In this document: piece after piece, positions 1-46,465 of the stretch | Layout of the letters: every line of letters begins with the position of its first letter | Position numbering within the stretch: the first letter of the stretch is position 1 | Source: Amoebophrya sp. A120 | Taxonomy: Eukaryota > Protista > Dinoflagellata | Direction: 5' to 3' | DNA: 64,000 nt | Assembly (NCBI GenBank): GCA_905178155.1 | Contig: CAJINV010000001.1 | Span: forward strand, 11,825,832 to 11,889,831 | Program-made: the position numbers and the translations under genes | The notes under the pieces: generated by a model | Told to the model about the DNA's origin: nothing | Seen by the model: only the letters and a program-made list of their open reading frames with translations | Database searches by the model: none

Positions 1-673
1 ATAGTCACGATACCCTGTCTCTGCCCTATCGTATTCCCGCATGTATTATGGATTGCAAAAATGCCTGGGTCTGGAAATTTGTAATGCTAAAAGTGAATGA
101 TAGACACACTGCAATACGCAGCTATGCATGAGAAATTTTTTGGCTGCCATGTCTTACGTATTCCGCATGGCAAGCTGCGTTTTTGCATGACAGGTAGGAG
201 GGCCTTTTCGTCCCCATGCAACACAGATTCTCGAGTCATGCCAGACAAGCATGACAAACTTGCATCCTTCCAGACCCAGACATTTTTACATTTCATATGT
301 ATTCGAGCACTTCCGCTTTTTTTGTGTTCTCGAACCCCAGTGCTCGCATGGCTACCTTCAGCTCGTGGTAGTCAATTTTTCCCGTCTTCTCGCTGTCGAA
401 AAGGTCGAAGGCTTCTCTTATCTCCTGCTTCTGCTCGTCGGAAATTTCAGGTCTGGCCACACGCCTGAACAGTAGAAATTTGTTGCATTGATTTGAGTTG
501 AAACTCTTGATCTTAATCAGATTTTCTGTGGATTTCGAGAAAGGAGAAGGACGCCAGCTTGCTGCATACTAATAATCATTCTACCCGGTGCCTCCGGGTC
601 GTGACCTGAACCTGCTCGTGGTTGCGTTTCCAAATCGCAAAAGCGATGTCCCGCCTTCCATCCGTCGCGACAT
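1..673 (-). CDS. CEN3: Centrin (centrin-3/Cdc31-like EF-hand protein), runs off the window start
   Basis: Not in the ORF track. Exon 673-585 (MSRRMEGG...), GT-AG intron 584-465, exon 464-298, TIR intron, then exon 41-1. Spliced peptide [61 protein letters not shown] matches the centrin-3 first EF-hand region. Confidence 0.92.
47..297. mobile_element. TIR non-canonical intron (introner/MITE), family A
   Basis: TIR TATGGATTGCAAAAATGCCTGGGTCTGGAA...TTCCAGACCCAGACATTTTTACATTTCATA. 5-bp TSD TGTAT at 42-46 and 298-302. Removal restores centrin ...EVLEY-M-REYD. Confidence 0.95.
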
Positions 674-5931: not shown

Positions 5932-8165
5932 CTAGAGTTCGTTCTTCCCTAGCTTCTCCTCTTCCTCTGTTTCCGCGCTAACCCAATAGCGATTTTCGCA
6001 TATTATGTCTTCGATGAAGCCCATTCCTTTCAGCCGCAGCCTGTCCTTTCTCACATACTGAGCCGCGAAGGCTTCGAAGCTCATGCTCTCCCACGTGGGA
6101 AGCTTTAACGAAAAGCACTCGAACCCGTAGTGCGCCACGAAATGGAGTAAATCGACGTGGTCCGTCCCGGTATTTGCGAGCATCGCCGGCTTATCAAGTG
6201 CAAAAATGTCTGGGTCTGGAAGAGTGCATGTTTGTCATGCTTGTCTGGCATGACTCTCCAATCTGTCATGCACGTTACCCAAGAGCTCCATTTTTCTGTG
6301 ATGCAGAAACGCAGTTTGTCATGCAGAATAGGCAACACCTAGAAGCTCAGAAACTTGTCATGCTGAGCCAGCATTTGTGGCCTCATCATGAGACGCCACC
6401 CAGCATCACAAGTTTCCAGACCCAGACATTTTTACATTTGGTACGGCTGGTACTCGAAAACCAGGTAGTGGACCATCGTGTGCTGCAACAATCTCTCCGC
6501 CCCTTTGAGCACGTAGAGCTCCGCGCCTTCCGTGTCGATTTTCAGCAAATCAATTTTCTTCAACTCTGCGGGAAAGTGCCTCGCGTTGGTAGCTGCCGTT
6601 GCGTCTGAAAGTCCGAAAAGATCGTCCAGCGTGACCACGGCAACCTCCTCCTCTTCCATATCTGGCGGCCCATCGAGGTACCCCATCAAGGCTAGACTCG
6701 TGTAGTCGTAGCGGGACAGTACCTTCTGTGCCCTTGCCGCGGCACCAAGCGCTGCCCCGATGAGATGGAAGAAGCCCGGTTGCGGGGTTGCATTTTTTTC
6801 AGCTGCATGATCCGCTTTCGTGTCTCCTTTGTCATTGTCATTGTCTTTCCCCTCCAGTCGCTCCCGCTCCTCGAGAATATGCTGTTCATTCATGGCTTTG
6901 ACGTGTGCAATCTCATCAAGTGTGAGCACAGGCCGGCCTTGCAAGTGAGCCGCGAGTTGAGCGGTGGTTGTCACTACTCCGCTACTCGACGCTGCGTCGG
7001 TTTTGTTCACAAATTCTTTTTCCGGCAATAATTTCCCCGGAACGACCGGAACCGGGCCTTCCACGTTCTCTTTCCTCCAGTACGGAAAGTTTTTGCGCAT
7101 CAGATTTCTGTTTCGCTTTACCATCTCGAAGCCAACACCGATGCAACCAAGTTCGACGATGGCCTTGGCCCAGTCGCCTCCGTCAAAAACACCGACGTCA
7201 AAGACGACTTTTCTCCTGGTTGGCTTGGCGGCATCACTGTCAACAAACGCCGGCTCGGATATTCTGCGCAGCAAGTCCAGCGAGCCCTGCAATCCGAAGT
7301 TGCTGTGCACCATCCCGAGCATCGGGGAAATTCTTGTGTTCGGGATGTGTTCGATAAAAGTAGTGTTCTCACTCTCATGTAGCTCCGCCGCTGCATCTAC
7401 TTTCACCGAGCTACTTCTTCCGCCGTGATTCCAGCGGTTTTTCTTCACTTTCACGAAGTACGGGAACCGGGGCTTTGCGTCGACGGAGATCACGTTGTCC
7501 TCTACATCGTAAGTCCCTATCACTTGTTCCACCTGCCCAAAAAGTGGCCAGGACAGCAGGTCCGGCTGCCGGAGCGCGAGCGGATTCAGCTCCCGCGCGA
7601 AATCCTTCGCTAGGGTTTTAAACGACGCGGAGTGCTGGGGGTGGTGAAGAGAGAGATAGATCAGAAAGGACAGAAAGCCTTCCCGGCACTCCTTAAAATG
7701 CTCACGGAAGTAGGCGAAAAGACTTTGCGGCTTGTTTTGATCTTCTACTTGGGCAGCTCTCGTCCCGGCTTCGGCTTTTTCATCTTCTGGGTGACTTCCT
7801 CCGGCCTCGTAAGTAGGTGGGAGCTCTTGCGGATCGATGATCTCTCCGTCGATTGTAAGGACTTTGTTCGTGAGCTCGACAAAATCGGGACTCGCACCCA
7901 TTTCCGCCGGATAGGGGGCAGAGGCCTGCAGAACACGCTGAAGACTGGTCCACGGTTCGTCGGCGCAAGTCTTCGTTGGCGGGGGCGACATGTCCACTGC
8001 AAGCTCGGCGCTGGCATGGTCTCCGCCGAGGAGCACCAAGCACGACAAAAGCAACGACGCAGGGAGGTGGGACGTCATTTTGTCTTTTACGGCTCTTTTC
8101 CTCCGGCGCGGCCTATTATTTCTGGATGTCCTGAAGATCTTCTTCGTCAAGTTCAGCATTTTCAC
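5932..8165 (-). CDS. FkbM-family (Methyltransf_21) SAM-dependent methyltransferase, probably secreted or signal-anchored (start may be M of MTSHLP)
   Basis: VVFDVGVFDGG and IDLLKIDTEGAELYVLKGA motifs. ORFs 6432-8165 and 5932-6183 join in frame (FEYQP|AMLANT) once the TIR element is removed. Confidence 0.85.
6192..6443. mobile_element. TIR non-canonical intron, family A
   Basis: TIR TATCAAGTGCAAAAATGTCTGGGTCTGGAA...TTCCAGACCCAGACATTTTTACATTTGGTA. TSD CGGCT at 6187-6191 and 6444-6448. Confidence 0.95.
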
Positions 8166-9266: not shown

Positions 9267-12200
9267 TTAGGCCGTAACAGGGCGTTGCCACTGAGAAGCG
9301 TTACCGGACAGGTCGTCGTCGTCCTCGGGAATGTAAGAAGAAGTCCAAGAGTTGTCAATGGAGCGCAGCGACGGCTCCGAGAAGAGCCTGGGGGTCGCGT
9401 CGCTCCCGCGGGTAGCCCGTTGCGAACCGGCTTGCCAGGACACTTCGGAACTGTGGTACGACGTCAGGGGGTCCTCTCGGTGCCTGGTCGCGTCGGAGTT
9501 GGACGTGCGAAACGCGTAGTCGCTCCTGCTTGACAACTGGTCACTTCTGTTGTACATGTCGTATAACGCAGGAGGATTAGAACCACGCCGCGTCGCATTC
9601 CCAACCTCGTGGAGAAACGTCGGCCAGGCGAGCGCATCATCCGCCTGGCCCGCCGCGTGGTGCTCGTCCCTGACTAGCTGTACATGCGTTCCTGAGGGAG
9701 CGGGGCTAGCCATCCCGAGTCCTAGCACCCCGAGCGTCGTATCATCTACCGAAGAATGCGCGTCGTCGTGTCGCTCGAGGAAGTGGTGGTGCCCGATTGT
9801 GGCCCCCACGGAAGACGGGCAGCGGGAGAAAGGGCGGGCTACGGGGTAGCCTGCTGCGGTTTTGGCTTGCACGCTTTGCTGACCACCGGCAGGGTCGACG
9901 TTACAGATCATGCCATTCCGACCTTGCATCGACCCGCCCTCCAGCGCTTCGTCCTGCGCAGGTACCGGTCGATTTCCCGGAGAGTGGTCCGGTGACTCCC
10001 TACTCTCCGGCCGCAAGACGTATCGGGGTAAAAATCGCCTATCCTCGGGACGCAGATGCAGCAGGCCAGCATTGTCGCGAGCACCCGAATTCAAAACCGC
10101 AACGTTACTGCAGCGCGACGTGAGCTCGCTGCTGTCGCGGCTCCGCGAAGTTTCCGCAGACAGGCGCTCGCCTTCTTCGCCGGCCTCCGCCCCGCTTCCT
10201 CGACTCGTCTGCTCCGGCGCTGCTCTTGGCATGTTACTGGAGTCCACTTCGAGCACATCCACAGCTTGGTCTGGAGCGTACTTGTACCGCTCCACACCCT
10301 CCCCCCACACCATGGCGCGGATGCGGTGGAGTTCTGGTCGGTCGATGACTCGACTGCTTTCCTATGAGAGTGCACAACTCCCCCTCCCCCTCATTTGTAT
10401 AGCATGAACGGCAATACAAGCATCAGCAAGAATGCCGGTTTTGCATGACAAATCTACACTGGATTGTAGTGCTATTTGGGCTACGAGAGCTTGTCATGCA
10501 AACAGTGCCAAGAGGCAAAGGGTGTACTTGCCATTTTGCATGACAAATGAGTGGGAGGGGGAGTTGTGCACTGTCATATTTCCCCCGATGACGACCTTGC
10601 GTTGCTCACGGAGGCTTGTTCGTCCCAACCTTGATTCGCAGCGACGGAGCTGCTCGGGGAGGCATTCCGCCAAAATGCATCCAGGCACGCACGGGGACTT
10701 TGTCGCGGCGCTGCGCTGTGCGTGGAAAGTTCGCCAGTGTGCGGTTTCTCTACAACTACTCCCTCAATCGCTGAACGCCGCTCCGACGGGTCCACTTCCC
10801 CGGTGAGTACTATCGCGTTGATGGCGTGCATCAGCGCCTCCTCCGCAGCGCTGTCGCTCCGCAGCTTCCAGGACGCACGCGGCCCGGAACCCGCATTGCT
10901 GCAGGGACTTGGTCCGGAGTGGAGAGGCGGCTGCACCGGATCCATTGACAATTGCTGCACGGTGCTGACTGACGCAGTAGATGTTGGACGATCTGATGTG
11001 AAGTTACAGAAAGCGGTTCATGCTGACATGGATCAGAGAGGACAACATCTGGCAACAGAACTTTAAGGATCGGATACGCTAGTAAATGAATCGGGCAGAG
11101 ACTGATGAATGAAATGACCGCTACCATCAAATGCTGACACCTCACCCCAACATTTCGGCTCACGACATATTCTTAGTGATTACCTGAAAAAGCGGACACA
11201 GCCGTGTTATTTCCACCAGCACAAGTTTCCTGACCAGCCGTCTCCTCCGGTGCAACGGACCAACTGTGTGCGCTTCTGGTGGGGAGGCAGTTAAGGAGGG
11301 CCCGGATTACGAACACGTAGCAGCACTCTCTGCAGCCGAACCGCTGGCACTGGTTCCTTATCTCAGTCCCTGCTAACGACTCTAGCGCCAGTCCGTCGGG
11401 TGTGGGTTCCTGAAGGGCAGATCGACCCATCTGCGCCGCGTGATGATCCGTGAGTTCTTCAGGAGGATACAACCTTTTTCCTGCTCCCCTGTGTTCTTCA
11501 CAGGATTTCGCTTCTGACGCTGCGGCAATTCGGCTGTTGCCAATAACGGTTGCGCCGACCGAGCAAGACGGCTGTAGGTGCTCCGCAGGGACGTTGGTGT
11601 CCTCCTCCTCGACGTCGTCCCATGGCAGTTTATTTCTTCTAACTTCGCCTGCGAGAAATCCTAATCCCCCTGCGCGAACCGTCGCGGGTCGCCGTGCTCC
11701 GGCGATTGGCGCCGGGCCTTGCTTCGTCGACTTCGGCGAAGCGCAAGGGGACGGCGCGCAACTTGACGTTCCACCTTCAGATAGTTCTTGCTGGTGTTCC
11801 TGCTGCACTCCCCCGTCGTCAGAGGACCTAAGCGACAGCAGTGGTAGGTTGCTCAAAGACGGCCCGTGCGGCCAGTTGGCCACGCGGGAAGACGGGGTCG
11901 CGGGGGATGTTGACCCGCATGTCGTGGTGAGTTGACTATTACTGTGGGATGCAAACCGTCCCCGGTCAACCGGACTTTTTGGAGCTACACGGTGCCCTTG
12001 AATCCTCCGTCGCGGGGAGCGTAGACCGCCCCGCGCGGAAGAGGCGGCGGGAGTGTTCGTGTCACCGTCGCTTGTGTCCGAGTCCTCGCTGGACGGCGAC
12101 CGAAAGCGCCGGACAAAATCCACTTGCCCGTATCTCGTCAAAGCTGTTTGCGCCACCGCGGCCGAGAGTGCAAGTGGCGGAACGACTGAGGACGAAGAAG

Positions 12201-13865: not shown

Positions 13866-16800
13866 TCACAGTGAGAGATTTCTCTTGCTGCCACCCGTGA
13901 GCTTCTTGCCGGTCGCGTAGAGAAACTTATCCAGCGAGCTGCTGATCGTGAAGATTCCGCCGATAATGACACAGAGGCTGGTGAGGAAGTGCGAGAACGG
14001 GATGAATCCCAACCGTTTCTGCACGAGGAAGGGCGAGAAGTCGTAGACTAGAAACACTCCAGGCAGCCCGGCTAGCTGCTCCGTGTTCACCAGTACGTTG
14101 CGGCTGGCCTCCGTGGAGGAGTACTGGTGCGAGTACTTTTTTGACGTCTCTGGGTACCGATCCTCCATGAAAATCGTGGGAATCAATTTGTTGTTATCAG
14201 AAGGGAAAGACGCCGCAATGAATCGCCATATGCAAGGGAGTTCTCATCTGCATCAATTTGGGTCACATTAATAAAATATCCTTGTTTGCTACGAGGGATC
14301 ATGCGGGCGTTTTTCACTTCGATAGATGTAGTAGTGAAACATGAAAGCGCCGTGGTCCACAATCTTCGACGTACCTTGTTCGTTTGATGTTTGTAGTGGT
14401 TCTGGTTTTCGAGTTTTACAACTTTAGTAAACGAACAGCGCACTGAAAAGACAAAAAAGAAAGAAAGGGAAAACGAACTGAGTGGGAAAATAAGTGTCTT
14501 TTTCTTGGAGGGGTTCGAACTGACAGGAAAAGAAGAGTTTTTGTGGAGGGCGGGGGTGATCGAACTGGGCAACATACAGAGAAGAAGGAGGAGGGGGGGA
14601 ACGAACTGCACACCAGGGAGAAGGAAAAGGGGGCCTCCGCGGTGCGCGAACTGACTGCGCGCGGCACCGTGCCGCCTTGGGCAAGCACAATGGACGCGCA
14701 ACAAGGTGCACACAGACCCATGGCGACGAGAAAGAGGCGCGCCAGCAGCGCGCCGCCATTCGTTGTAGCGGCAAGAAGCAACAGAACGATGCGCGTAGTG
14801 GTTGCAAATCACGCAGGACTGGACAGGGAAACACGCGACCAACCGGAGAAAATCGAGCGCCCCACCGTGTCTGAAGACGGGCCGGCGGCTTCCCGGCGGG
14901 CCGTCGAGGCCTCCCCGGGGCGCCTGTGCGTAGCTGTATGGCCTGCCACATAGGCGGCCGCTCTCCCTTGGCCCTTTCCTTGGACCTTTCCTCCAGATTT
15001 TGGCAGATTTTCGGCAAATTTTGGGGAGCTTTCAAAAACGCAAGCGCCGTGGTCCACGATCTTCGACGTACCTTGTTCGTTTGATGTTTGTTTGTATTGA
15101 TAGACTTCTAAACTTCGTGCAGTAATCCAAATGACAGCCTTCACTTTCATTATTTTCGCGAGGTTCTTCATTGAGCACCTTGAACAAAAGACTAACACTG
15201 CCACTGGAAGAACATCCCCTGGCTGAACGACCCACTGGCGTACCTTCCGGCGTATCATACTGAAAAGCGCATCCCATAGTGCAACCATTTGCAATACATT
15301 TGCGTTTTTCATCTCGCTGGTCAGTGTGACGAAAATCAGCTATCTGTGCTGATGGCACGCTTTGCAAACGCAAAATAAGAACATGCCTACTCCCCAAAAT
15401 TATCTGGTCGCAAGTATGTGCGATGTGCTTTTCTCTACAGCATACAGTGGCGCATCCACGAGGCCATTGAAGCGCGGACCAAACTGCAAGCGATTGATGA
15501 TGTGCGACGTGTTATCCTGAGTAAAAACGTACCCACACCAGAGTCAGGTTGGGGATTTTGCAACACAAACCTAGGAGTTTTGTGAGTCACGCATGACGCG
15601 TTGCACTCTGCAGTGTAGTGCAGGTTAGCAAGTGCAGCCGCCTCACAGATTCATCTGCTCATCCTGTTCACAGCATCACAAATTCCAAAACACGATTGGA
15701 AATGGCTCCCATGGGGATGCGCATTACAAGTCTTCCTGTCTTTGCAAATCTGCATTACAACTCTGGTGTGGGTACGTTTTTACTCAGGATACGTGTTGAA
15801 GCCCTCGGAAACGTCTCGGATGTTGAACTCGTGGACGTGTCTGTATGAAGTGCAAATTTGTCTGGGTCTGGAAGACTGCATGTTTGTCATGCTTGTCTGG
15901 CACGGCTCTCAAATCTGTCATGCACGTTACCCAAGACCAAGAGCACAAGACAATTTCTCAGCCATTCAGAAACGCAGTTTGTCATGCAGAACAGGCAACA
16001 CCTAGAAGCTCAGAAACCTGTCATGCTGAGCCAGCACTTGTGGCCTCCTCATGGTACGCCACCCAGCATCACAAGTTTCCAGACCCAGACAACATTTTTG
16101 CATTTGATAGTCTGCCCTGGCGAACAATGGACTTCCCCAGCGCCACGTGGACATTCCCGGCGACCTTCGACACGAGCACGTCGCCGTCGACGACGCAGCC
16201 GACGATGTGCTTGCACTGTTCGGACTCCTTCAGGACTTTGTAGTAGCTGAGCCCCGCTTGCGTGTACGCCTCCTTCAACGATTTGCAGTCGTTGCAGCAC
16301 GAGCCCTCGGGCATGTTCGAGGCCGCTGCGTAGCACGACAGACAGGCTCCTTCTGGCGCCACCGGGTCCTCGCCAAACCGCCCGAACCGATCCACGGGGT
16401 ACTTCTGGAGCCCGCCCGAGTCGATGTTGATTTGGTTCTCGCCCGACGAATCCACCGTGTCCACGGAAACCTCGTCACATCGCAGGTCCGGAAAGGTGAT
16501 ATTCAGCCCGATGGGTAGCTTCTCGTCGGTCGTCGTGTCCACCACGATGTGGTCCGAAATTCTCGTTGACAGGTAAAATCTTAGCTCCCCCGCGATCAGG
16601 ATCAGCATAGAAATGTACGTGAGCAGTGATATCGTGCCCCCGCTTTTCGTCTTTATGTTGTAGTCGTCATGCACCTTTTTGCAGAAGTTTTTTCAAAAAC
16701 GCTATATCCTCGACATTTTAATCGCGTCAAAATTTCCATTTACGAAAAAAACAAAGCACCCAGGGTAGAGCTCGGCCGCAGTGGAGAGTACTTTTATGCG

Positions 16801-29500: not shown

Positions 29501-32500
29501 ATTCGACCGGGCGCCGGCGGTGCGGGATTGCTCGTTTTACTTGACACCGCTGAAGAACTCGGCGCCGCCTTTGCCAGCACCGGGCCGCGCGACTTTTGTT
29601 CAGCACCCGGCGGCCGCTTCGGTTGCAGAGACGACTTTTCATCCTCACTCGAACTCTTTGCAACTTTCGCAGCCTCTTCTTCACTCGAGCTGGCGCCTCC
29701 ACCGATGAGAGTGACAGCGGGCGCGGAGTCATCGACCGTGACGCGCTTGCCAGGAAAAGTACTTGCTTGCTTCGACGTAATTTCCTCACTTCTTGCATCA
29801 GCATGATCCGGTGACGACGGAACAGCAGCCGCCTGGGAGTCGTGGTCGTCCTGTTGCAAACTCGGGCTGGAAACGTCTTCCGAACGCTCCGGCCGAGCCG
29901 GCGCGCCCTCGGAGTCGCCTGCTGGGCCGATATCTGCCTCGGAGTCGGTGCCCGGCACCGAACCCGCGGACAACACCGAACCCCCACCGCCGCCCGAATG
30001 GTCCTCGTCACTGTGTATGTTTTTCGTCCCTGCTTCCGAATTCGTCTGCAGGATTCTTTTGGACTCGGTCAGACTTGCCGCAAGTGGCTCCCCTTCCGGA
30101 TTCGACGGCTCTACTGATGCGGACAGCTCAAACTGCTCGTCTGTTGCCTGCAGCAGTTCCTGTCCGCGCGTGGAGATCATGTTGCCACGGGCGAGCGCCG
30201 CATTTACGTTCGTCGCTTGTTGCGATTCTGGTTCCGCTGCCTGTTGTTCCTGCTCCACCTCGCTTTCCGGCGCCGAACCCTGGAAGGAAGCATCATCTCG
30301 ATTGCCTGAAGGAAATGCTGGTGCCCCTTCGTCCGACGATCCACCCGGAGGTAAAACGTCGAGATCCTCTGCCTCCTTCGGCTGCTCCTGCTCCTGATCC
30401 GTATCAGTTACACTCATGTCATATCAAATGTAAAAATGTCTGGGCCTGGAAGAGAGCAACTTGTGATGCTGAATTTGGATTCCAAAAAAATCTGTATTAC
30501 ATGAGCAGCAAAGGGAATGGAATTTTTGCTACGCGGAGAGGGCATTTGTCATGCGGAATAGGCACCGCGAAGCCCTCAAAAAAGCTGTGATGCTAGGGCA
30601 TGCATCACAGACATCATGGCCAATGCAAAACATGCATGACAAGTCTCAGAATCTTCCAGACCCAGACATTTTTACATTTGATATGTCACTGAAGGTGTCC
30701 CGGGGATTTCTCATCGAATTCGCTGGAACGGGGGCTAAGCCGACTTTCTTCTGTTCTTTTTGTCCGACCGCGAGAGCATTGACGTTCGCTTGCGACAGTA
30801 CAGGACCGCCGTTGTCATCTTCCATTCGCATCAGCTCTGGCACCGTACCCCCGTCACTGCTCGCTGGGAAACCGCTGCTCTGTACGCTCGCCTGCAGATT
30901 GTCACCTGCCGCAGCTGCTGCTCCGCTGCTCATCGGCACGTCAACATCCTCGTGCGCTTCGTCCGTCCCAAGCTGGCCACGGTTGAATACGGGCTCGCCA
31001 ACATCTTCTTGCGCTTGCACCTCTATAGCTGCATCGTGCTCCACAATTTCGTCTGAGTCTATCTCCTCCGCCTGCTCCCCGGCCGCGGTCTGGGCGGCGT
31101 CTGGTTGCCCTTGGTCAGCGCCGGGGTCTTCGTCATACTCTTGGAATTCCCCATGTTCGTCGTAGTACCCGGCGCCGCTGCCGTCGTGATAGTTCCCATC
31201 GTCGTCGTAGAAGCCTCCGTAATGGTCATACCCCTCTGCATCGAAACCGTGCTCGTCGTACTGCCGAACGTCTGGCTCTTTCGAAGCAGCTGGTGAGGAT
31301 CCCCCGAGATGATCGTCACTTGATGCCGCAGGTAGATTCTGATCTTCCGGTGAGCTTTGACTTGTTTTTACCGCTATTTCTGGATTAACTTCACCTGGTT
31401 CAGTTGTTACATTTTCCTCTTGAACTGCTTCCAGATCCCCCGCCGTGCTTCTCCGCTTTGTCATTGCGTCCGAGAACCGCTGCCCCAGCGCCATACCAGC
31501 TTCCGCCTCGTTGTCCGAGTAGGTGTCGCCGTGAAGGAGCTCTTTTTCCTCGTATTCCGCCTGGTGGTGGTGCTCATCCCCCTCGACAACAGGATTCAGA
31601 CCCTGTTCCGGCGCGAGCAGGGGGCCGCCCTCCGGCACGATTGACCTTTTGAAGGGACTATTGCCTCCTAAAAACTTGTCCGTTTGCAGCATGTTCAGGA
31701 AGCTCGGGCGCGCGGTGCCAGTGGTTGGAGGCGGCGTGAGACGAGTCGACGTCGATGGTGCTCTAGTACTGTCCGCAGACTGCTGTTCTTTAGCCGTGCT
31801 AAGTGTCAAATCACCCTCGTGCACCTGCTGCTGTACTACTTCACCCTCCTGCGTCGGCTCGTCGTAATACATGAGCAGAACTTCCTTCGCCGCAGGGTCG
31901 ACTACATCAAGACCGTCGTTGCTATTCGCTACGAAGTCGAGAAAGGAGCCTAAGTGTTCCTTCCCTTGCAGCCACGCGTTACCGTACTGTTGGAACAGAA
32001 CTTCGGCGGTCGCCGCGTCCTGCATTTTCTGTTTGATAGGCGAGTCTCCCAGCGAAGATCTATTTTGCCCGAGTTTTCTTGTTCCAAACGACGCTTCCTT
32101 GCCGGCCCGCCTCATCGGGCTATCCTCCTCCGCCACAACGCCCGCTTCATCCAGCGCCTGATCCCAATAGTTGTTGGTTAGACTGTTTAGAAACCGCATC
32201 TCATCTCTTTGCACCAAGGGGATCTTGTCGGGAGAATCAGGCGGCATGTCGTAGAACGGCAGTTCCACGGAGACAGCGGGAGTGGTTTCTTCGGCCTTTT
32301 TTCCAACATCTTCAACCTCAGTTGTGAAAGCCTCGCTAGACAATGTGGCCGGTCCTTCCGCTGCTCCCGCTTCTATCCCCTCTGCAATGAATTCCACCTT
32401 TTTCTTTTTTGTTTCGTCTCGCTTGACGCGGTCTCCTTCCACTGGCTCCTCTTGCTGCAAAATTTCCGCAACTTTCTTGCTCTCCCGGCGCAGGTCGAAA

Positions 32501-41222: not shown

Positions 41223-42330
41223 CCTCGCAGACGTCCGGCTGCAGTCCCGGCGGTGCAACTCCTTCTGCTGAGTTCACGCCCCGGCGGCGTGCTGCAGACC
41301 GCTGCTACTCAATGGCGAGACCAAACGGGAGGAAAACTTTCCGCGGCGTGCCCCTATCATGTCAACGTTTTTATCTTCTATCCGGTGTGTCAGTCGGGTG
41401 CTACTATCTGTATTCAAGGCCGAGAAACTAGAGGACGCTCGTGTTTGTTGAGAAAGCGCATTCCTCGTATTTGTTGTTGATCGAAGACCTCGAAGTACTT
41501 GGCCAGCGGCCCGAAATACTGTTAGTACACGATCACGAAGTCGACAGCGATTTCGATTAGCGATCAAAACGAGCGAGTATTAAGTCCTGTTTCTGGATGC
41601 CACGAAAAACGATGCGAAGTATTTATCCGTCCTGCGATGGCTAGTGCAATGCGATCTTCAGGCGCCAAGCGTTCAGCTTGGTGCAGTAATCTTCGCGCAT
41701 GGAATTGCCTTGCGAGGCTAGCGCGCTCCACGCAAGGCCCCACGGCGAGGGGGGACGAATGTACCGAGCAGAATTTGTACACAAGATTCTAGAACTGGCA
41801 ATTCGCGCCGAAGCTTGGACAGTTTCTTGAAGATCGCGCACCGCCGGTGCGGCGGGCACCTTCCCCCTGCCTTCGCGCCGCCGCCCCTACCCGGCGTACA
41901 CCACGCGGGAGCCCGCGTTCTTAATCCGAATGCGCACCGCAGATGTCGGGGGGGGGGTCCTTGCGGGGCAGAGCGGCGGGGCCCCGCGAGGTGGGGCGGC
42001 GCCAAAAGTACGCAGGAGGGCGCGCGGCGGCAGGGGCTCAATTAGCCAGCGCAGTGGAGGATGCGCAATGCGCCTGCATCGTGTTGGTCACGCGCGTCCC
42101 GCACGCGAAAGGATGGCAATCCGGTCGAACGGATTGGAGCTCCGCGACCGGGCGCCTAGCGCGTTGCAGGGGCAGACAAGGTTGAAGAAAGGAGGAAGGA
42201 GGAACAGGGCGGAGCTCCGGGGTTCGGCAGAATCCGGATGGTAGAAAAGAAAACGCAAATCATTAAAGGATCGCCATTCGCGGAAAAAGAGGGCCAGAAG
42301 CGATCGCACTTCCTTGGACTAGGAGCATCC

Positions 42331-42381
42331 CCACTGACCTTCCATCAGGTCAGGGGTACAGACCTCCCACCAGGTCAGTGG
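42331..42381. repeat. Tandem pair of GACCT-N6-AGGTCAG palindromes
   Basis: CCACTGACCT TCCATC AGGTCAGGGG TACA GACCT CCCACC AGGTCAGTGG; the outer 10-mers are also perfect reverse complements. Confidence 0.8.
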
Positions 42382-42804
42382 TCAAAGCCCTAGGATCTTC
42401 GGACCTCGTTGGTGTGGGTTTCGGTGCCATTATGGATGGCGATGGCTCTGCGGAGCATCAAAGTCGTATAATATGACACACATGAGCGCTTGAACCGTTC
42501 CCGCATAATGTAACTCCATAAGTATGTTGATAAACATACATCTGCTTGCTCCAGTGATGCGGTTCGGGTTTTTATGGTTGTAGCGGTTCAGGTTTTTTTT
42601 TGGCTTTTTTTCGCCTTTTTCTTGTGCTTTTTGCGCCAGCTTTGCAAGGGCGCCAGCTTTTTGGCGCGGGGGCGTCGCCTGCCTTGGGCGCAGGCCAGAG
42701 CGAAACTTATCGCGCGGGCCGCCAACTGGCGGTCTTGCTCGCCAACCTCGCCACGGCTGCTGGCGGGAGGCAGTTTTTCGCCGTCGCCATCGCTCCAAAA
42801 CGAC

Positions 42805-43034
42805 TGCCGCCAAGCTGCCGCCAACGCTGCCGCCACCACGTTTGGCGGCACCTTACCACGACCTGACGCTGCGACTTTGCCACTGCCGCCATCGAAAAAA
42901 GATAAAAAGACTAATATTTAAATATTAGTCTTTTTATCTTTTTGGTATGGCGGCAGTGGCGAAAGTGCGGAGTTGGCTCGTGCTGAAGTGCCGCCAAACG
43001 GGGTGGCGGCAGCGATGGCGGCAGCATGGCGGCA
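42805..43034. repeat. Spacerless palindrome: 48-bp perfect AT-rich core with ~115-bp imperfect GC-rich arms
   Basis: Core 42896-42943 AAAAAGATAAAAAGACTAATATTT|AAATATTAGTCTTTTTATCTTTTT, axis 42919/42920. Arms share GCCACTGCCGCCA, TTTGGCGGCAC and GCTGCCGCCA repeats. Confidence 0.95.
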
Positions 43035-43249
43035 CCGACGGCAAACGGGAAACCGAGGCTGTGCCAACTCGTCCGCGCGTTGACCAGCGCCAGCCGAATA
43101 CGCTACGGAGCGCGCAGCGGCCCTCGCAATGCTCGCAGGTGGCGGGGCTGTCGGAAGCTGCTTGCCACGCTTGCCGGGCGGCAGCGAAGTGGCCTCCGCT
43201 AGGCCAATGCGCCCCGCGGCAGTTGGGGGCTGCTCGCCTTGCTGTGCTC

Positions 43250-43800
43250 GGCGACGTGTGCGCCTACGGTAGCCCAACTCGGCGCGAGGCGGGCGGGCGC
43301 GGCTTGGCGCGCTTGCCGCGCGACAACGTATTGGCTTACGGTAGCCCAATACGTCGCGGAACTGGCGGGCGCGGCTTGAAGCGCCCGCCGCGCGACGACG
43401 TATTGGCTTACGGTAACCCAATACGTCGCGGAGCTGGCGGGCGCGGCTTGACGCGCTTGCCTCGCGCCGACGTATTGGCGTACGGTGCCCCAGTACGTCG
43501 TAGGGCAGGCGGACGCGGCGCGGAGCGCTTGCCGCGCGACGACGTTTTGGCTTACGGTAGCCCAATACGTCGCGGAACTGGCGGGCGCGGCTTGGCGCGC
43601 TTGCCTCGCGCCGACGTATTGGCTTACGGCAACCCAATACGTCGCGGGAAAGGCGGACGCGGCGCGGAGCGCTTGCCGCGCGACGACGTGTTGGCTTACG
43701 GTAAGCCAATACGTCGCGGAACTGGCGGGCGCGGCAGGCCGCGCGGAAACGTATTGGCCCAAAGAAGCCGAGTTCGTTGCGGAGCTGGCGGACGCGGCGG
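43250..43800. repeat. 72-bp tandem array (~7.5 units), each unit carrying an imperfect ~31-bp palindrome
   Basis: TACGG cores at 43265, 43337, 43409, 43481, 43553, 43625 and 43697, an exact 72-bp period. Unit palindrome GACGTATTGGCTTAC-G-GTA[AG/GC/AC]CCAATACGTC. Confidence 0.95.
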
Positions 43801-43845
43801 GCCGCGCTCCCCTTCTGGCGGCCCCGCGGAGCGGAAGGAGGGCGG

Positions 43846-43959
43846 TGCCGCCAATCCCGCGGGGCCCCTGTACCAATGTGGCTACGCGCTTGCAGGGGGC
43901 GCACAAAGCGACACCAGTGCCGCCTTCATTGGTACAGGGGCCCCGCGGGATTGGCGGCA
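43846..43959. repeat. Perfect 33-bp inverted repeat with 48-bp spacer
   Basis: TGCCGCCAATCCCGCGGGGCCCCTGTACCAATG at 43846-43878 and its reverse complement at 43927-43959. Confidence 0.95.
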
Positions 43960-44504
43960 GGGCTGTGCCGCGTCTGCGGCTGGTTTCTCATTCAGAAGGG
44001 CCATCGGAGGCCGGCTTGCTTTTTGGCTTCGTTCCGGGCGCCTTCAGATCCCGCGCGAGGCTGCATGCTTCGCGCCGGATCTGAAGCCGCCGGGGCCGCC
44101 CTTTTGCGTCACAAATCGGCCCCCGAACAGCCCGGGAGCCGCAGGGGCCGTGCGGGAATACGCCGGAGGGCCCCTTGGGGGAAAGAGTGGCGCTCGCTTC
44201 CCCCGCAAGGCTCTTGGGGCACTGCGCGAGCCGCCCGGGGGCCCTTTAAGGGGTTCCGGTCTCGAATACCCAGCCCCGACGCATCCTGGAGCAACCCAGG
44301 AACCACCTTGGGGCACTCCGAGAATCGGCGGCCCGCCCGGAGGCGACGGCGGCCCTTCTTGCGCGGATCGGCGGCCCCTTTTCCGCGGAAAAATCGCGCG
44401 CGGGCGCGATTTTTTCGCGAAAAAAGTGAAAAAAAAACAGCCCCGAAACCACTACTGCCACAGCAGTAGCAGTAGCCCGAAGCATCACTGAAGCAAACAG
44501 CATA

Positions 44505-45275
44505 GTGCCACTTTTGGAAATTTTAAAATTTTTGAAATTCTGAAGAATTTTCTGAAAATGATGGAGCACCATCATAATCTGACAAGAAAGACAACCTATT
44601 TTCTATAAATAAAGAGCAAGCGCCTCCACAACAAGGCACTCCACTGCTGAACTCCGAAAAAACGCAAAAAGTCCATTTTTTCAAAAGTGCGCGACTTTTC
44701 ATATGTCCTTCAAAATTCGCAGAAATCACATGCTAGGTTAGAAATTAGCAAAGGAACTGCGAGAATTAGCCAACCACTTAAGTAAAAGAGTGCCAAGCTT
44801 GGAAATTTCGTCGATTTTGCATGACCGGAATTTTTCAGGATTTTTTGAGAATTTCTAAAACTAGTGAAAAATCTGGCACATGCCACATTTTGTGCATATG
44901 CTACCTTCTGTATAGGAAAAACATACAAACATCATTGCTATCACTCTTTGTAAATTGCATTTTGTTGCATAATTTTTAAGCAGGAACTTTTTGAAAATTT
45001 TTCAATTTCGAAAAAATATCCACTATCACTTAGTAGATGCACTAACTGAGTGGAAAGTATGCAAATGAAACAGAAAAAATACTATTTTTTCTTGTATAGA
45101 GGTCATTTAATCGATACATCTGCAATTCTGCGACATTTTGAAAATTTTGAATTTTTTTTTTACCCTTAAAAAATTAATGCTATGTGGCCATAGTGGTAGA
45201 AAAAAGCTTTGTAATGTGTTCGGAGGTGTATTTGTATCATATAGGAATACTTTTGTCCAATAGTATTTAAAATAT
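44505..45275. other. AT-rich block with many A/T tracts between very GC-rich flanks
   Basis: Abrupt composition switch; repeated AAATTTT / GAATTTTT / TTTTGAAAATTTT runs; no credible ORF. Confidence 0.7.
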
Positions 45276-46465
45276 GCCACTGCTGCTGCTAACAGAGCCT
45301 CCAATTTGGATTCCTGGGCCGTGAGCTTCTCTTTTTCCTCTACATTGCCCCCTCCCCCCCCCCCTCCTAGTACTGCCCACTCCCCCTGGAAGAGAGACGC
45401 CCTGTCATGCCCTGGAGGAGGCATGCCCCCCCTCCAGCCCGACCGGACGCCGCGCCCGTCGCAGTAGGGCCCCCCTTTGCCTCCTGTTCCATGCTGTACT
45501 GTGACCGGAGTTCCGCCCTCGCGGGTGCGTTTTTTATCGCGAGGTCACCCATCGGGGCGCACGTTATCAAGGGGATGCTTTGTCTTGCCGGGCATTCGTC
45601 GTGGACCCGCGCGGGCTGTGTAACAAATCGCATGCGCTTCGGCGTCTTTTTTCCGGAGCAGCATCCCCGTCCGCTGCGATTACGGGCCGCCGGGCCGCGC
45701 TCGCCTTGGCCCGTTCCGTTCTAAGCTTCTACGCTTTCCCGGGCTGGTGCAACGGCGCAAAGCATTGCGAAATGCCTTCCACCCGCCCGAGACTTCGCGC
45801 AAGGTCGCCGTCGGCAATTTTCCTAGAGCGACGCTGGTACGGCAAGCACCCAAGGCACCGGGCCGCGGAGGTGCGGGCAGAGAAGAACCGCACCAAAAAC
45901 GGCCCACGCAAGCCTCGCGACAGAAGCAGGCCGGGCCTGCCGGACGGAAGAGTGCAGCGCGGCGGCGGCCAACCCGGCCGCTGCAATAACATTCCTGCGG
46001 GCCGCACCGCTTCGCTTTTCCATCGGGGGTGGGTTGTTTTCCGCCCCACCCGCGCCCGCACCGATGCCAGTGGGCGTACGCAAGAGTGAAACGGCCCGGC
46101 AACGCGGGGGGGCCTATCGATGTTACACAGAATCTCCCCTGCCGGGAAAAGACGGGCGCGGGGGAAAGACGGTCCGGCCGCGTCAAGTTGCATGGGAGTG
46201 CCAGGGGGGTGCGCATCCTCTGGCCTTACGCACATGTGTTCGCAGAAAGGGAACCCATGCTCGAGGTTGCATGTCGCTGTTCTGTTCCAAAAGAAGAACG
46301 TTAATCATCAGAGACGTACGAAAAATGAAAAGCGTTGTGATCTTGTGCGTGCGACGGAACTCTTCAGATCAAAGCCACACACAAGGCTATCCTCTGGAGG
46401 AATGGTTTGATTTCCCTTTTTTTGAAGCGATCCTCGTCTCACTTTTTATTTACTCCGATCGTCAG

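What the first reader, a model, noticed from the sequence alone, without database searches (positions are those of the whole stretch)
6192..6443. Fixed-spacing TGT[CG]ATGC / GCAT[GCT]ACA motif lattice shared across different TIR families
Seen: in family A a motif pair sits exactly 39 bp apart in every copy although the spacers have diverged strongly. The pairs are 6317/6356, 15980/16019, 30547/30586, 55996/56035, 63821/63860 (degenerate) and, reversed, 165/126. The same octamer recurs in families with different TIRs: B (10443, 10492, 10538), E (15673, 15721, 15752) and F (63431, 63499, 63562, 63593). Inference: these are binding sites for a common factor (transposase or excision/splicing protein), so specificity lies in the internal lattice plus the terminal TA, not in the TIR sequence.
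Basis: partly seen in the sequence, partly recalled or inferred. Interest (0 to 1): 0.72.

Follow-up and report, generated by a model that had tools for sequence, protein, structure and literature searches.

The report
Three-turn motif pairs inside mobile introns
Small transposon-like introns of a marine parasite, already published as a class, carry a repeated 8-letter DNA word in almost every family, usually in pairs 31-33 bases apart rather than the 39 first reported, and this word is likely the docking site of the still unidentified enzyme that spreads them.

Summary
The motif is real; the 39-bp rule is not general. The window holds nine TAT..(A/G)TA elements with 5-bp target duplications, matching published Amoebophrya A120-type introners. 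Likely-RNA contigs lack all four tested, each with one duplication copy. TGTnATGC falls inside them 38 of 42 times. In 331 elements, nearly all from a sister assembly, it is about 40-fold enriched; it occurs in 16 of 18 TIR clusters. The 39-bp pair is family-A ancestry (91-123 of 157 copies, 0 of 135 others). The shared rule is a same-strand pair 31-33 bp apart (12 of 15 consensuses, chance 2.2), often starting 32-33 or 41-44 bp from an end. Motif cores change at 0.1-0.2 of the spacer rate on shared branches, and show no strand bias in the RNA. Best reading (0.6): subterminal transposase sites, as known for hAT elements and plant MITEs. 'Not the TIR' is overstated: inner TIRs are nearly as constrained, and TA is the element tip, not the target. 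No binding protein was identified here. This scan noted the same motif before on other DNA of this genome.

The parts
6192..6443 (.). E2, family-A introner (252 bp, TAT..GTA, about 30-bp TIRs) in an exon of a minus-strand FkbM methyltransferase gene
   Evidence: skipped with one 5-bp repeat (6186>6444) in 4 of 4 likely-RNA runs of one sample; PF05050 in the upstream exon
6187..6191 (+). left copy of the 5-bp target duplication CGGCT
6444..6448 (+). right copy of the 5-bp target duplication CGGCT
6233..6271 (+). motif pair 31 bp apart (6233, 6264), first copy 41 bp from the left end: the cross-family unit
6297..6304 (+). further motif copy TGTGATGC, 33 bp after 6264
6403..6410 (-). inward-pointing motif 33 bp from the right end
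47..297 (.). E1, family A in reverse orientation, duplication TGTAT; strict motifs at 80, 185, 249; degenerate at 126, 165, 218
   Evidence: frame restored on removal
10363..10578 (.). E3, family B, duplication TTTCC; motifs at 10443, 10492, 10538 (33 bp from the right end)
   Evidence: skipped in 4 of 4 runs
15513..15791 (.). E4, family E, duplication CGTGT; motifs at 15673, 15721, 15752 (31-bp pair ending 32 bp from the end)
   Evidence: skipped in 3 of 4 runs
15844..16109 (.). E5, family A, duplication GTCTG, 3-bp insertion in the right TIR; motifs at 15885, 15916, 15980, 16019, 16066
   Evidence: skipped in 3 of 4 runs
30422..30683 (.). E6, family A, duplication TGTCA; motifs at 30462, 30547, 30586, 30602, 30634
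55871..56132 (.). E7, family A, duplication ACATG, in a plus-strand exon that reads like pyruvate kinase (name recalled, not from a call); motifs at 55912, 55943, 55996, 56035, 56083
63339..63643 (.). E8, family F, duplication GTGCT; motifs at 63431, 63499, 63562, 63593 (31-bp pair ending 43 bp from the end)
63693..63957 (.). E9, family A, duplication GAACA; motifs at 63736, 63821, 63876, 63908

Best explanation
The elements are short non-coding inverted-repeat elements that sit in exons and are missing from likely-RNA contigs, and the repeated word AYYTGTnATGC is likely a subterminal DNA-binding site for the transposase (or a closely related set of transposases) that would move them. Shown: anatomy, removal with one 5-bp repeat, enrichment, a same-strand pair 31-33 bp apart, a first inward copy at 32-33 or 41-44 bp from an end, and slow change of the motif core. 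Inferred: 31-33 bp is three helical turns and the two end offsets differ by one turn, so a multimeric protein would bind two sites on one face of the helix and hold the TAT tip in register for cutting; copies that lose sites would be copied less, which keeps the word in families whose other sequence has diverged. The inner TIR (11-30) likely adds a family-specific contact or end pairing. Splicing likely depends on the ends, not on the word. The 39-bp pair is inherited within family A.
For: Enrichment: 12.9/kb in 331 elements against 0.33/kb in 540 kb of masked flank; 1,040 hits against 20-32 in 10 Markov simulations. Present in 16 of 18 TIR clusters; internal BLAST hits between most clusters are short, 21-79 bp. 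31-33-bp pair in 12 of 15 consensuses (null mean 2.2, maximum 8 in 5,000 permutations) and 9 of 10 merged lineages. 18 of 21 ends with an inward motif at 25-60 bp have it at 32-33 or 41-44 (bins chosen after seeing the data; 9 of 30 ends have none). Motif core changes: 6 seen against 53 expected on internal branches, 80 against 142 on terminal branches (odds ratio 5.0, P 8e-6; 127 elements, sites used in the search pattern left out); this is the pattern expected if selection acts when copies are made. No strand bias in the transcript: 320 against 290 in 192 elements; 25 carry only one orientation, 28 only the other. Conservation is no higher with exon-like than with AT-rich flanks (0.30 in 215, 0.15 in 18). 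Elements with one site or a lattice split by inserts of up to 1 kb still restore long frames. Precedent: hAT transposases bind short subterminal repeats through BED domains and need 100-200 bp of each end (PMC10368747); Lemi1 proteins bind subterminal motifs of the Emigrant MITE (PMC1636448); hAT5 makes 5-bp duplications (PMC12730594).
Against: No transposase was found here (73 longest locus ORFs against Pfam; motif scan), and no autonomous element was in hand to check for the word. The internal-versus-terminal contrast is significant only in family A (0.14 vs 0.61, P 1e-6); in other families it is 0.18 vs 0.31, P 0.29. The terminal ratio never reaches 1 and does not rise with branch length (0.56, 0.45, 0.40), so constraint after insertion is not excluded. 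Assembly errors would inflate terminal changes in all classes and mimic neutrality. One nested 111-bp TAT element has no site, and one 1.1-kb element has sites only near one end. Beyond the 31-33 peak there is no clear 10.5-bp comb: same-strand distances near 10, 21 and 42 are almost absent and the periodicity of end offsets is weak (R about 0.35), so 'lattice' overstates it. One subfamily is oriented 12:2 to the transcript (P 0.013 uncorrected, 1 of 6). Farhat et al. argued against transposase mobilisation because none was found in A120.
Confidence: 0.6

Rival explanations
1. The word is bound by a host DNA-binding or chromatin protein that the elements have co-opted as a transposition cofactor (bending DNA, clearing or phasing nucleosomes), while each family's own transposase reads its TIR.
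For: Explains one word across unrelated TIRs together with family-specific but conserved inner TIRs. Three-turn spacing fits one-face binding. A host DNA-bending factor is hypothesised for Hermes, and a host YY1-like factor binds ProtoRAG TIRs (search listing only).
Against: The word is rare outside elements: 4 of 42 window hits, none clustered, 0.065/kb, so no ordinary host use is visible. No candidate protein.
Confidence: 0.2
2. The word serves the host after insertion: a protein bound to the DNA marks the element for co-transcriptional excision by the U1-less splicing machinery.
For: Constraint persists on terminal branches (0.31-0.61). Removal is exact without GT-AG (0 of 9 window elements, 10 of 192 overall allow it). 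324 of 331 elements have two or more sites. About 16 ordinary introns placed by eye hold 1 hit in 3.1 kb.
Against: Constraint is strongest on shared branches in family A; no gain in exon-like context (small non-exon sample); single-site and split-lattice elements sit in long restorable frames (RNA not checked for these).
Confidence: 0.1
3. The word is an RNA signal or part of the RNA hairpin used in splicing.
For: E2 folds into a strong end-to-end hairpin (-110.9 kcal/mol, z -7.6); some sites are mirrored at the two ends.
Against: Only 24 of 76 consensus sites have a mirror partner; no strand bias, and 53 of 192 elements carry one orientation only, split evenly; the conserved unit is a direct pair, which cannot base-pair.
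Confidence: 0.04
4. No present function: all families descend from one ancestor, or the word is a by-product of internal duplication or CpG decay.
For: Accounts fully for the 39-bp pair in family A; some TIR clusters are clearly related.
Against: Core changes at 0.11-0.18 of the spacer rate on internal branches; CpG spacer sites are not hypermutable (0.68-0.78, 30 sites); number, order and orientation of sites differ between families while the 31-33 distance is kept.
Confidence: 0.06

Closest known systems
Introner elements / non-canonical introns of Amoebophrya sp. A120 (Farhat et al. 2021, PMC7789003; Gozashti et al. 2025, PMC12130899)
   Same: TIRs starting TAT, about seven free bases, then three or more A; 3-5-nt direct repeats at the junction; about 240 nt; hairpin; no GT-AG; many families. 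Gozashti's table lists most short A120 families seen as 'TIR DNA, Unknown'.
   Different: Neither text, as far as seen, describes an internal motif or its spacing; Farhat et al. state that no family-specific IR motif and no A120 transposase were found.
hAT subterminal repeats (Hermes, Ac, Tol2, Tag1; PMC10368747) and hAT5 (5-bp duplication; PMC12730594)
   Same: Short words repeated in both orientations within 100-200 bp of the ends, asymmetric between ends, AT-rich flank; 5-bp duplication as in hAT5.
   Different: The Hermes word is 4 bp and scattered; here it is 8-12 bp with a fixed 31-33-bp pair shared by families with unrelated TIRs. No hAT transposase was shown here.
Emigrant MITE / Lemi1 (PMC1636448)
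   Same: A MITE whose internal repeated motifs, besides the TIR, are bound cooperatively by the mobilising transposase.
   Different: Emigrant's motifs copy the 3' half of its own TIR and it is pogo-like; here the word is independent of the family TIR and the elements are spliced from exons.

Membership tests
Amoebophrya A120-type introner elements | TIR beginning TAT, about 7 free bases, then an A run | tested here: met
   296 of 300 left and 293 of 300 right ends read TAT (the finder required TA); family-weighted logo with A at 11-15
Amoebophrya A120-type introner elements | short direct repeat at the exon junction | tested here: met
   9 of 9 window elements have an exact 5-bp repeat; 8 of them were first found by TIR alone
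Amoebophrya A120-type introner elements | removed from the transcript without GT-AG | tested here: met
   4 of 4 elements in the laid stretch are skipped exactly in contigs of one sample guessed to be RNA, which also skip ordinary introns; no GT-AG register in 9 of 9
Amoebophrya A120-type introner elements | host is Amoebophrya | tested here: met
   closest named relative of the window's TatD protein is Amoebophrya A25, 39%; the assembly sharing these families (86-96% identity) has a protein 95% identical to one of A120
MITE (non-autonomous TIR DNA transposon) | short, non-coding, TIRs, target duplication, many copies | tested here: met
   109-369 bp, 331 distinct copies
MITE (non-autonomous TIR DNA transposon) | mobilised in trans by a transposase | not testable with these tools
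   no activity assay; no autonomous partner retrieved
hAT / hAT5 superfamily | 5-bp target duplication (hAT5) | tested here: met
   hAT5 definition; other groups such as Transib also give 5 bp (search listing)
hAT / hAT5 superfamily | subterminal repeats near both ends | tested here: met
hAT / hAT5 superfamily | autonomous element with hAT DDE transposase and BED domain, same ends and motif | tested here: inconclusive
   none in 670 kb of loci, a small part of the genome; earlier scan notes report such elements elsewhere, not checked here
hAT / hAT5 superfamily | protein binds the subterminal word | not testable with these tools
   needs EMSA, footprint or pull-down
Tc1/mariner or IES-like TA-target elements | TA is the duplicated target | tested here: not met
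   the duplication is 5 bp of free sequence outside TA..TA, and removal takes both TAs

The most novel reading that the evidence does not exclude
One DNA-binding protein reads a three-turn pair of TGTnATGC sites common to nearly all introner families, and this single DNA code both licenses transposition and marks the element on the gene for exact, U1-independent excision from the nascent RNA: a transposon-written splicing signal read on DNA.
Probability: 0.1. Interest if true: 0.88.

Novelty: new variant of a known kind. Interest (0 to 1): 0.5.

Why it matters
How tens of thousands of Amoebophrya introners spread and how they are removed without normal splice signals are open questions (PMC7789003). 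A word shared by most families, with a fixed 31-33-bp pair, is a ready bait for finding the protein and a ready mutation target for separating transposition from splicing. It also suggests that the apparent diversity of about two thousand families rests on one mobilising system. The general principle, subterminal transposase sites, is established for hAT elements and MITEs, which caps the surprise.

Tried and rejected
No whole genome was held, and the records behind the loci could not be searched, so orthologous insertions between strains could not be compared; the loci do not overlap the window. No RNA holder was listed on record; raw RNA run X9 laid only on repeat ends and is no evidence. 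The joints table was filled by repeat cross-matches. Viral contigs: family-A pattern 0 hits; generic pair pattern 120 single hits, none similar to the element library, read as chance. No long autonomous element, hAT domain or hAT-like peptide motif in the loci. 39-bp spacing as a general rule: rejected. Continuous 10.5-bp lattice: not supported beyond the 31-33 peak and two end offsets. CpG decay as origin: rejected. Compensatory pairing of TIR positions 4-10: none in 128 family-A copies (1.96 vs 1.98 mismatches shuffled; weak signal at 11-16, P 0.002, possibly from the finder's TIR filter). Ageing test (does the motif decay in old or non-exon copies): inconclusive. Roy et al. 2023 Curr Biol was not held.

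Full report
Observation. A scan for TGT[ACG]ATGC on both strands gives 42 hits in the window against 5-7 expected from Markov orders 1-4 and 15 from order 5. Of 81,060 TA..TA stretches of 80-1,500 bp, 106 have an exact 5-bp flanking repeat, and the nine best by end complementarity are E1-E9; eight score 21-25 of 25, E5 scores 14 because of a 3-bp insertion, the next best 13. These nine hold 38 of the 42 hits (16/kb against 0.065/kb). The pair 165/126 is degenerate at both sites. The six 39-bp spacers are gap-free homologues with 12-29 of 31 matches.

What the elements are. Each of the nine lies in a frame that reads through once the element and one repeat copy are removed, and none offers GT-AG in any of the six registers. 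Contigs from four runs of one sample, guessed to be RNA and skipping ordinary introns too, skip E2 and E3 (4 of 4 runs) and E4 and E5 (3 of 4) by exactly element plus 5 bp. Contigs of run X1 keep ordinary introns and run into the element ends. E2 is predicted to fold end to end (z -7.6). Family A is found in both orientations to the transcript. The closest named relative of the window's TatD protein is from Amoebophrya A25. The end rule, length and junction repeats match the introner elements published for Amoebophrya A120. The terminal TA belongs to the element; the duplicated target has near-uniform base composition.

Larger sample. That assembly is a sister lineage: one protein is 95% identical to its A120 match, its elements are 86-96% identical to the window's, and it does not overlap the window. 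It gave 300 distinct elements by a strict finder and 331, the window's nine included, by a relaxed one. Family A is over-represented by design. Of 302 elements up to 400 bp (7 longer ones dropped), 16 of 18 TIR clusters carry the motif; the two without are single copies. Density is 12.9/kb against 0.33/kb in masked flanks. The family-weighted word is A(T/C)(T/C)TGT(C/A/G)(A/T)TGC followed by A-rich bases; the matrix was trained on these elements, but the octamer came from the window and was then tested on the other assembly.

Spacing. The 39-bp pair occurs in 91-123 of 157 family-A copies and 0 of 135 others. A same-strand pair 31-33 bp apart occurs in 12 of 15 group consensuses (permutation mean 2.2, maximum 8 of 5,000), in 123 of 157 A copies and 88 of 135 others, and in 9 of 10 lineages after merging related groups. 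Where an end has an inward motif at 25-60 bp, it lies at 32-33 or 41-44 in 18 of 21 cases; 9 of 30 ends have none, and the bins were chosen after looking. Opposite-strand distances of 15-17 and 34-35 recur in several groups. Same-strand distances near 10, 21 and 42 are nearly absent, so the data show one fixed pair and two end offsets, not a full lattice. Reading 31-33 bp as three helical turns rests on the textbook 10.5 bp per turn.

Selection. In six subfamilies (127 of 331 elements) I counted parsimony changes away from the consensus, leaving out family-A sites within 55 bp of an end because the search pattern fixed them. Motif cores changed at 0.11 of the spacer rate on internal branches and 0.56 on terminal branches (P 8e-6); TIR 11-30 at 0.23-0.32 and 0.45-0.53; TIR 4-10 at 1.7 and 1.3 (first pass). 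With looser clusters (247 elements) family A gave 0.14 and 0.61 (P 1e-6), other families 0.18 and 0.31 (P 0.29), and the terminal ratio did not rise with branch length. So neutral decay with the spacers is refuted; whether constraint ends after insertion is not settled, because terminal branches hide unsampled transposition steps and any assembly errors.

DNA or RNA. In 192 of 331 elements with a strand call (93% agreement within loci), the transcript carries the word 320 times one way and 290 the other; 25 elements have only one orientation, 28 only the other, 3 none. Five of six subfamilies show no orientation bias; one is 12:2. Only 24 of 76 consensus sites have a mirror partner for hairpin pairing. 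Motif conservation is no greater with exon-like flanks than with AT-rich flanks, though only 32 of 353 matches are AT-flanked. Seven of 331 elements have at most one site; five of these, and several copies split by long inserts, sit in restorable frames of 600 nt or more (no RNA check). This points to a double-stranded DNA site that splicing does not strictly need.

Mechanism. Most likely (0.6) the word is a subterminal transposase site: a multimer binds two sites on one helix face, phased to the TAT tip, cuts, and inserts with a 5-bp stagger, mostly into GC-rich exon DNA; the ends then allow exact removal from the RNA by the unknown non-canonical route. Binding, the enzyme and the role of phasing are inferred. 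Rivals are a host cofactor (0.2), a DNA mark for splicing (0.1), no function (0.06) and an RNA signal (0.04). I found no transposase in the loci (73 longest locus ORFs of 269 listed; peptide patterns; long-element scan). Earlier scan notes report 10-26-kb elements with the same ends and hAT-like genes elsewhere in this genome; these steered me to the hAT comparison and I could not check them. One such note found no hAT match in a 3.1-kb element.

Known and new. The elements are published. Subterminal motifs bound by transposases are established for hAT elements (PMC10368747) and for a plant MITE (PMC1636448). I found no description of this word or spacing in print in searches. Seen: PMC7789003 abstract, passages, sections 5, 12 and 16, and a term search of its supplement text (figures such as S19 and S25 not visible); PMC12130899 passages, a search of 12 of 14 supplements, parts 15-16 of file 8; PMC1636448 abstract and section 14; passages of PMC10368747, PMC12730594, PMC9860276, PMC12005148 and PMC11282704. 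Roy et al. 2023 was not held; it and the unseen supplements may bear on novelty. This scan noted the same motif and 31-33-bp spacing on other DNA of this genome; that is not independent support. I had seen the 31-bp recurrence in the window (noted) before reading those details.

Verdict. A real, selected, cross-family DNA motif inside a known intron-forming MITE system; the 39-bp constant and 'not the TIR' are corrected. New variant of a known kind, interest 0.5.

Noticed in passing
L008 13458-14712, L057 3862-4492, L026 632-1465, L028 10299-10755, L056 571-1051, L054 908-1312: Six long introners carry secondary inserts that look, by eye, like truncated non-LTR retrotransposon pieces (short microsatellite tails in four; a shared end and 70% identity in L008/L057). 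One end of each joins at a CATG or CGTG of the introner, mostly within the motif itself: possibly retroelements that target introners.
   Followed up: partly
L017 1809-2240 (inner element 1847-1957): A 111-bp TAT..ATA element with a 5-bp duplication and no motif, nested inside another introner.
   Followed up: partly
L021 505-1608: 1.1-kb element with matching TIRs, four sites in the left 220 bp, none elsewhere, a GC-rich repetitive interior, in a long restorable frame; possibly a deletion derivative of a long element.
   Followed up: partly
all loci: Insertions avoid AT-rich DNA: 3% of 270 have flanks under 45% GC against 26% of random positions; a GC and gene bias is published for introners generally.
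   Followed up: yes
TIR positions 4-10, all family-A copies: These positions change faster than spacers (1.3-1.8 times) among a few alleles, and the two ends of one copy are no more alike than random ends: suggests end exchange between copies.
   Followed up: partly
window 41700-46300: The point where gene orientation switches from minus to plus holds a 230-bp palindrome (42805-43034), a 72-bp tandem array with internal palindromes (43177-43824), an inverted pair (43846-43959), an AT-rich block and a lone motif at 45403 preceded by a stretch like the family-A TIR end.
   Followed up: no
window 54944-55740: 13/16/26-bp tandem arrays fill an intron of the plus-strand gene that also holds E7.
   Followed up: no
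window 14337-14394 / 15034-15091 and 59563-59617 / 60668-60722: Two pairs of 55-58-bp direct repeats, 697 and 1,105 bp apart; the first brackets a GC-rich insert inside a 1-kb intron.
   Followed up: no
L018 2422-5877: C-5 cytosine methyltransferase domain split over two adjacent ORFs, followed by a 1,100-aa ORF without Pfam match.
   Followed up: no
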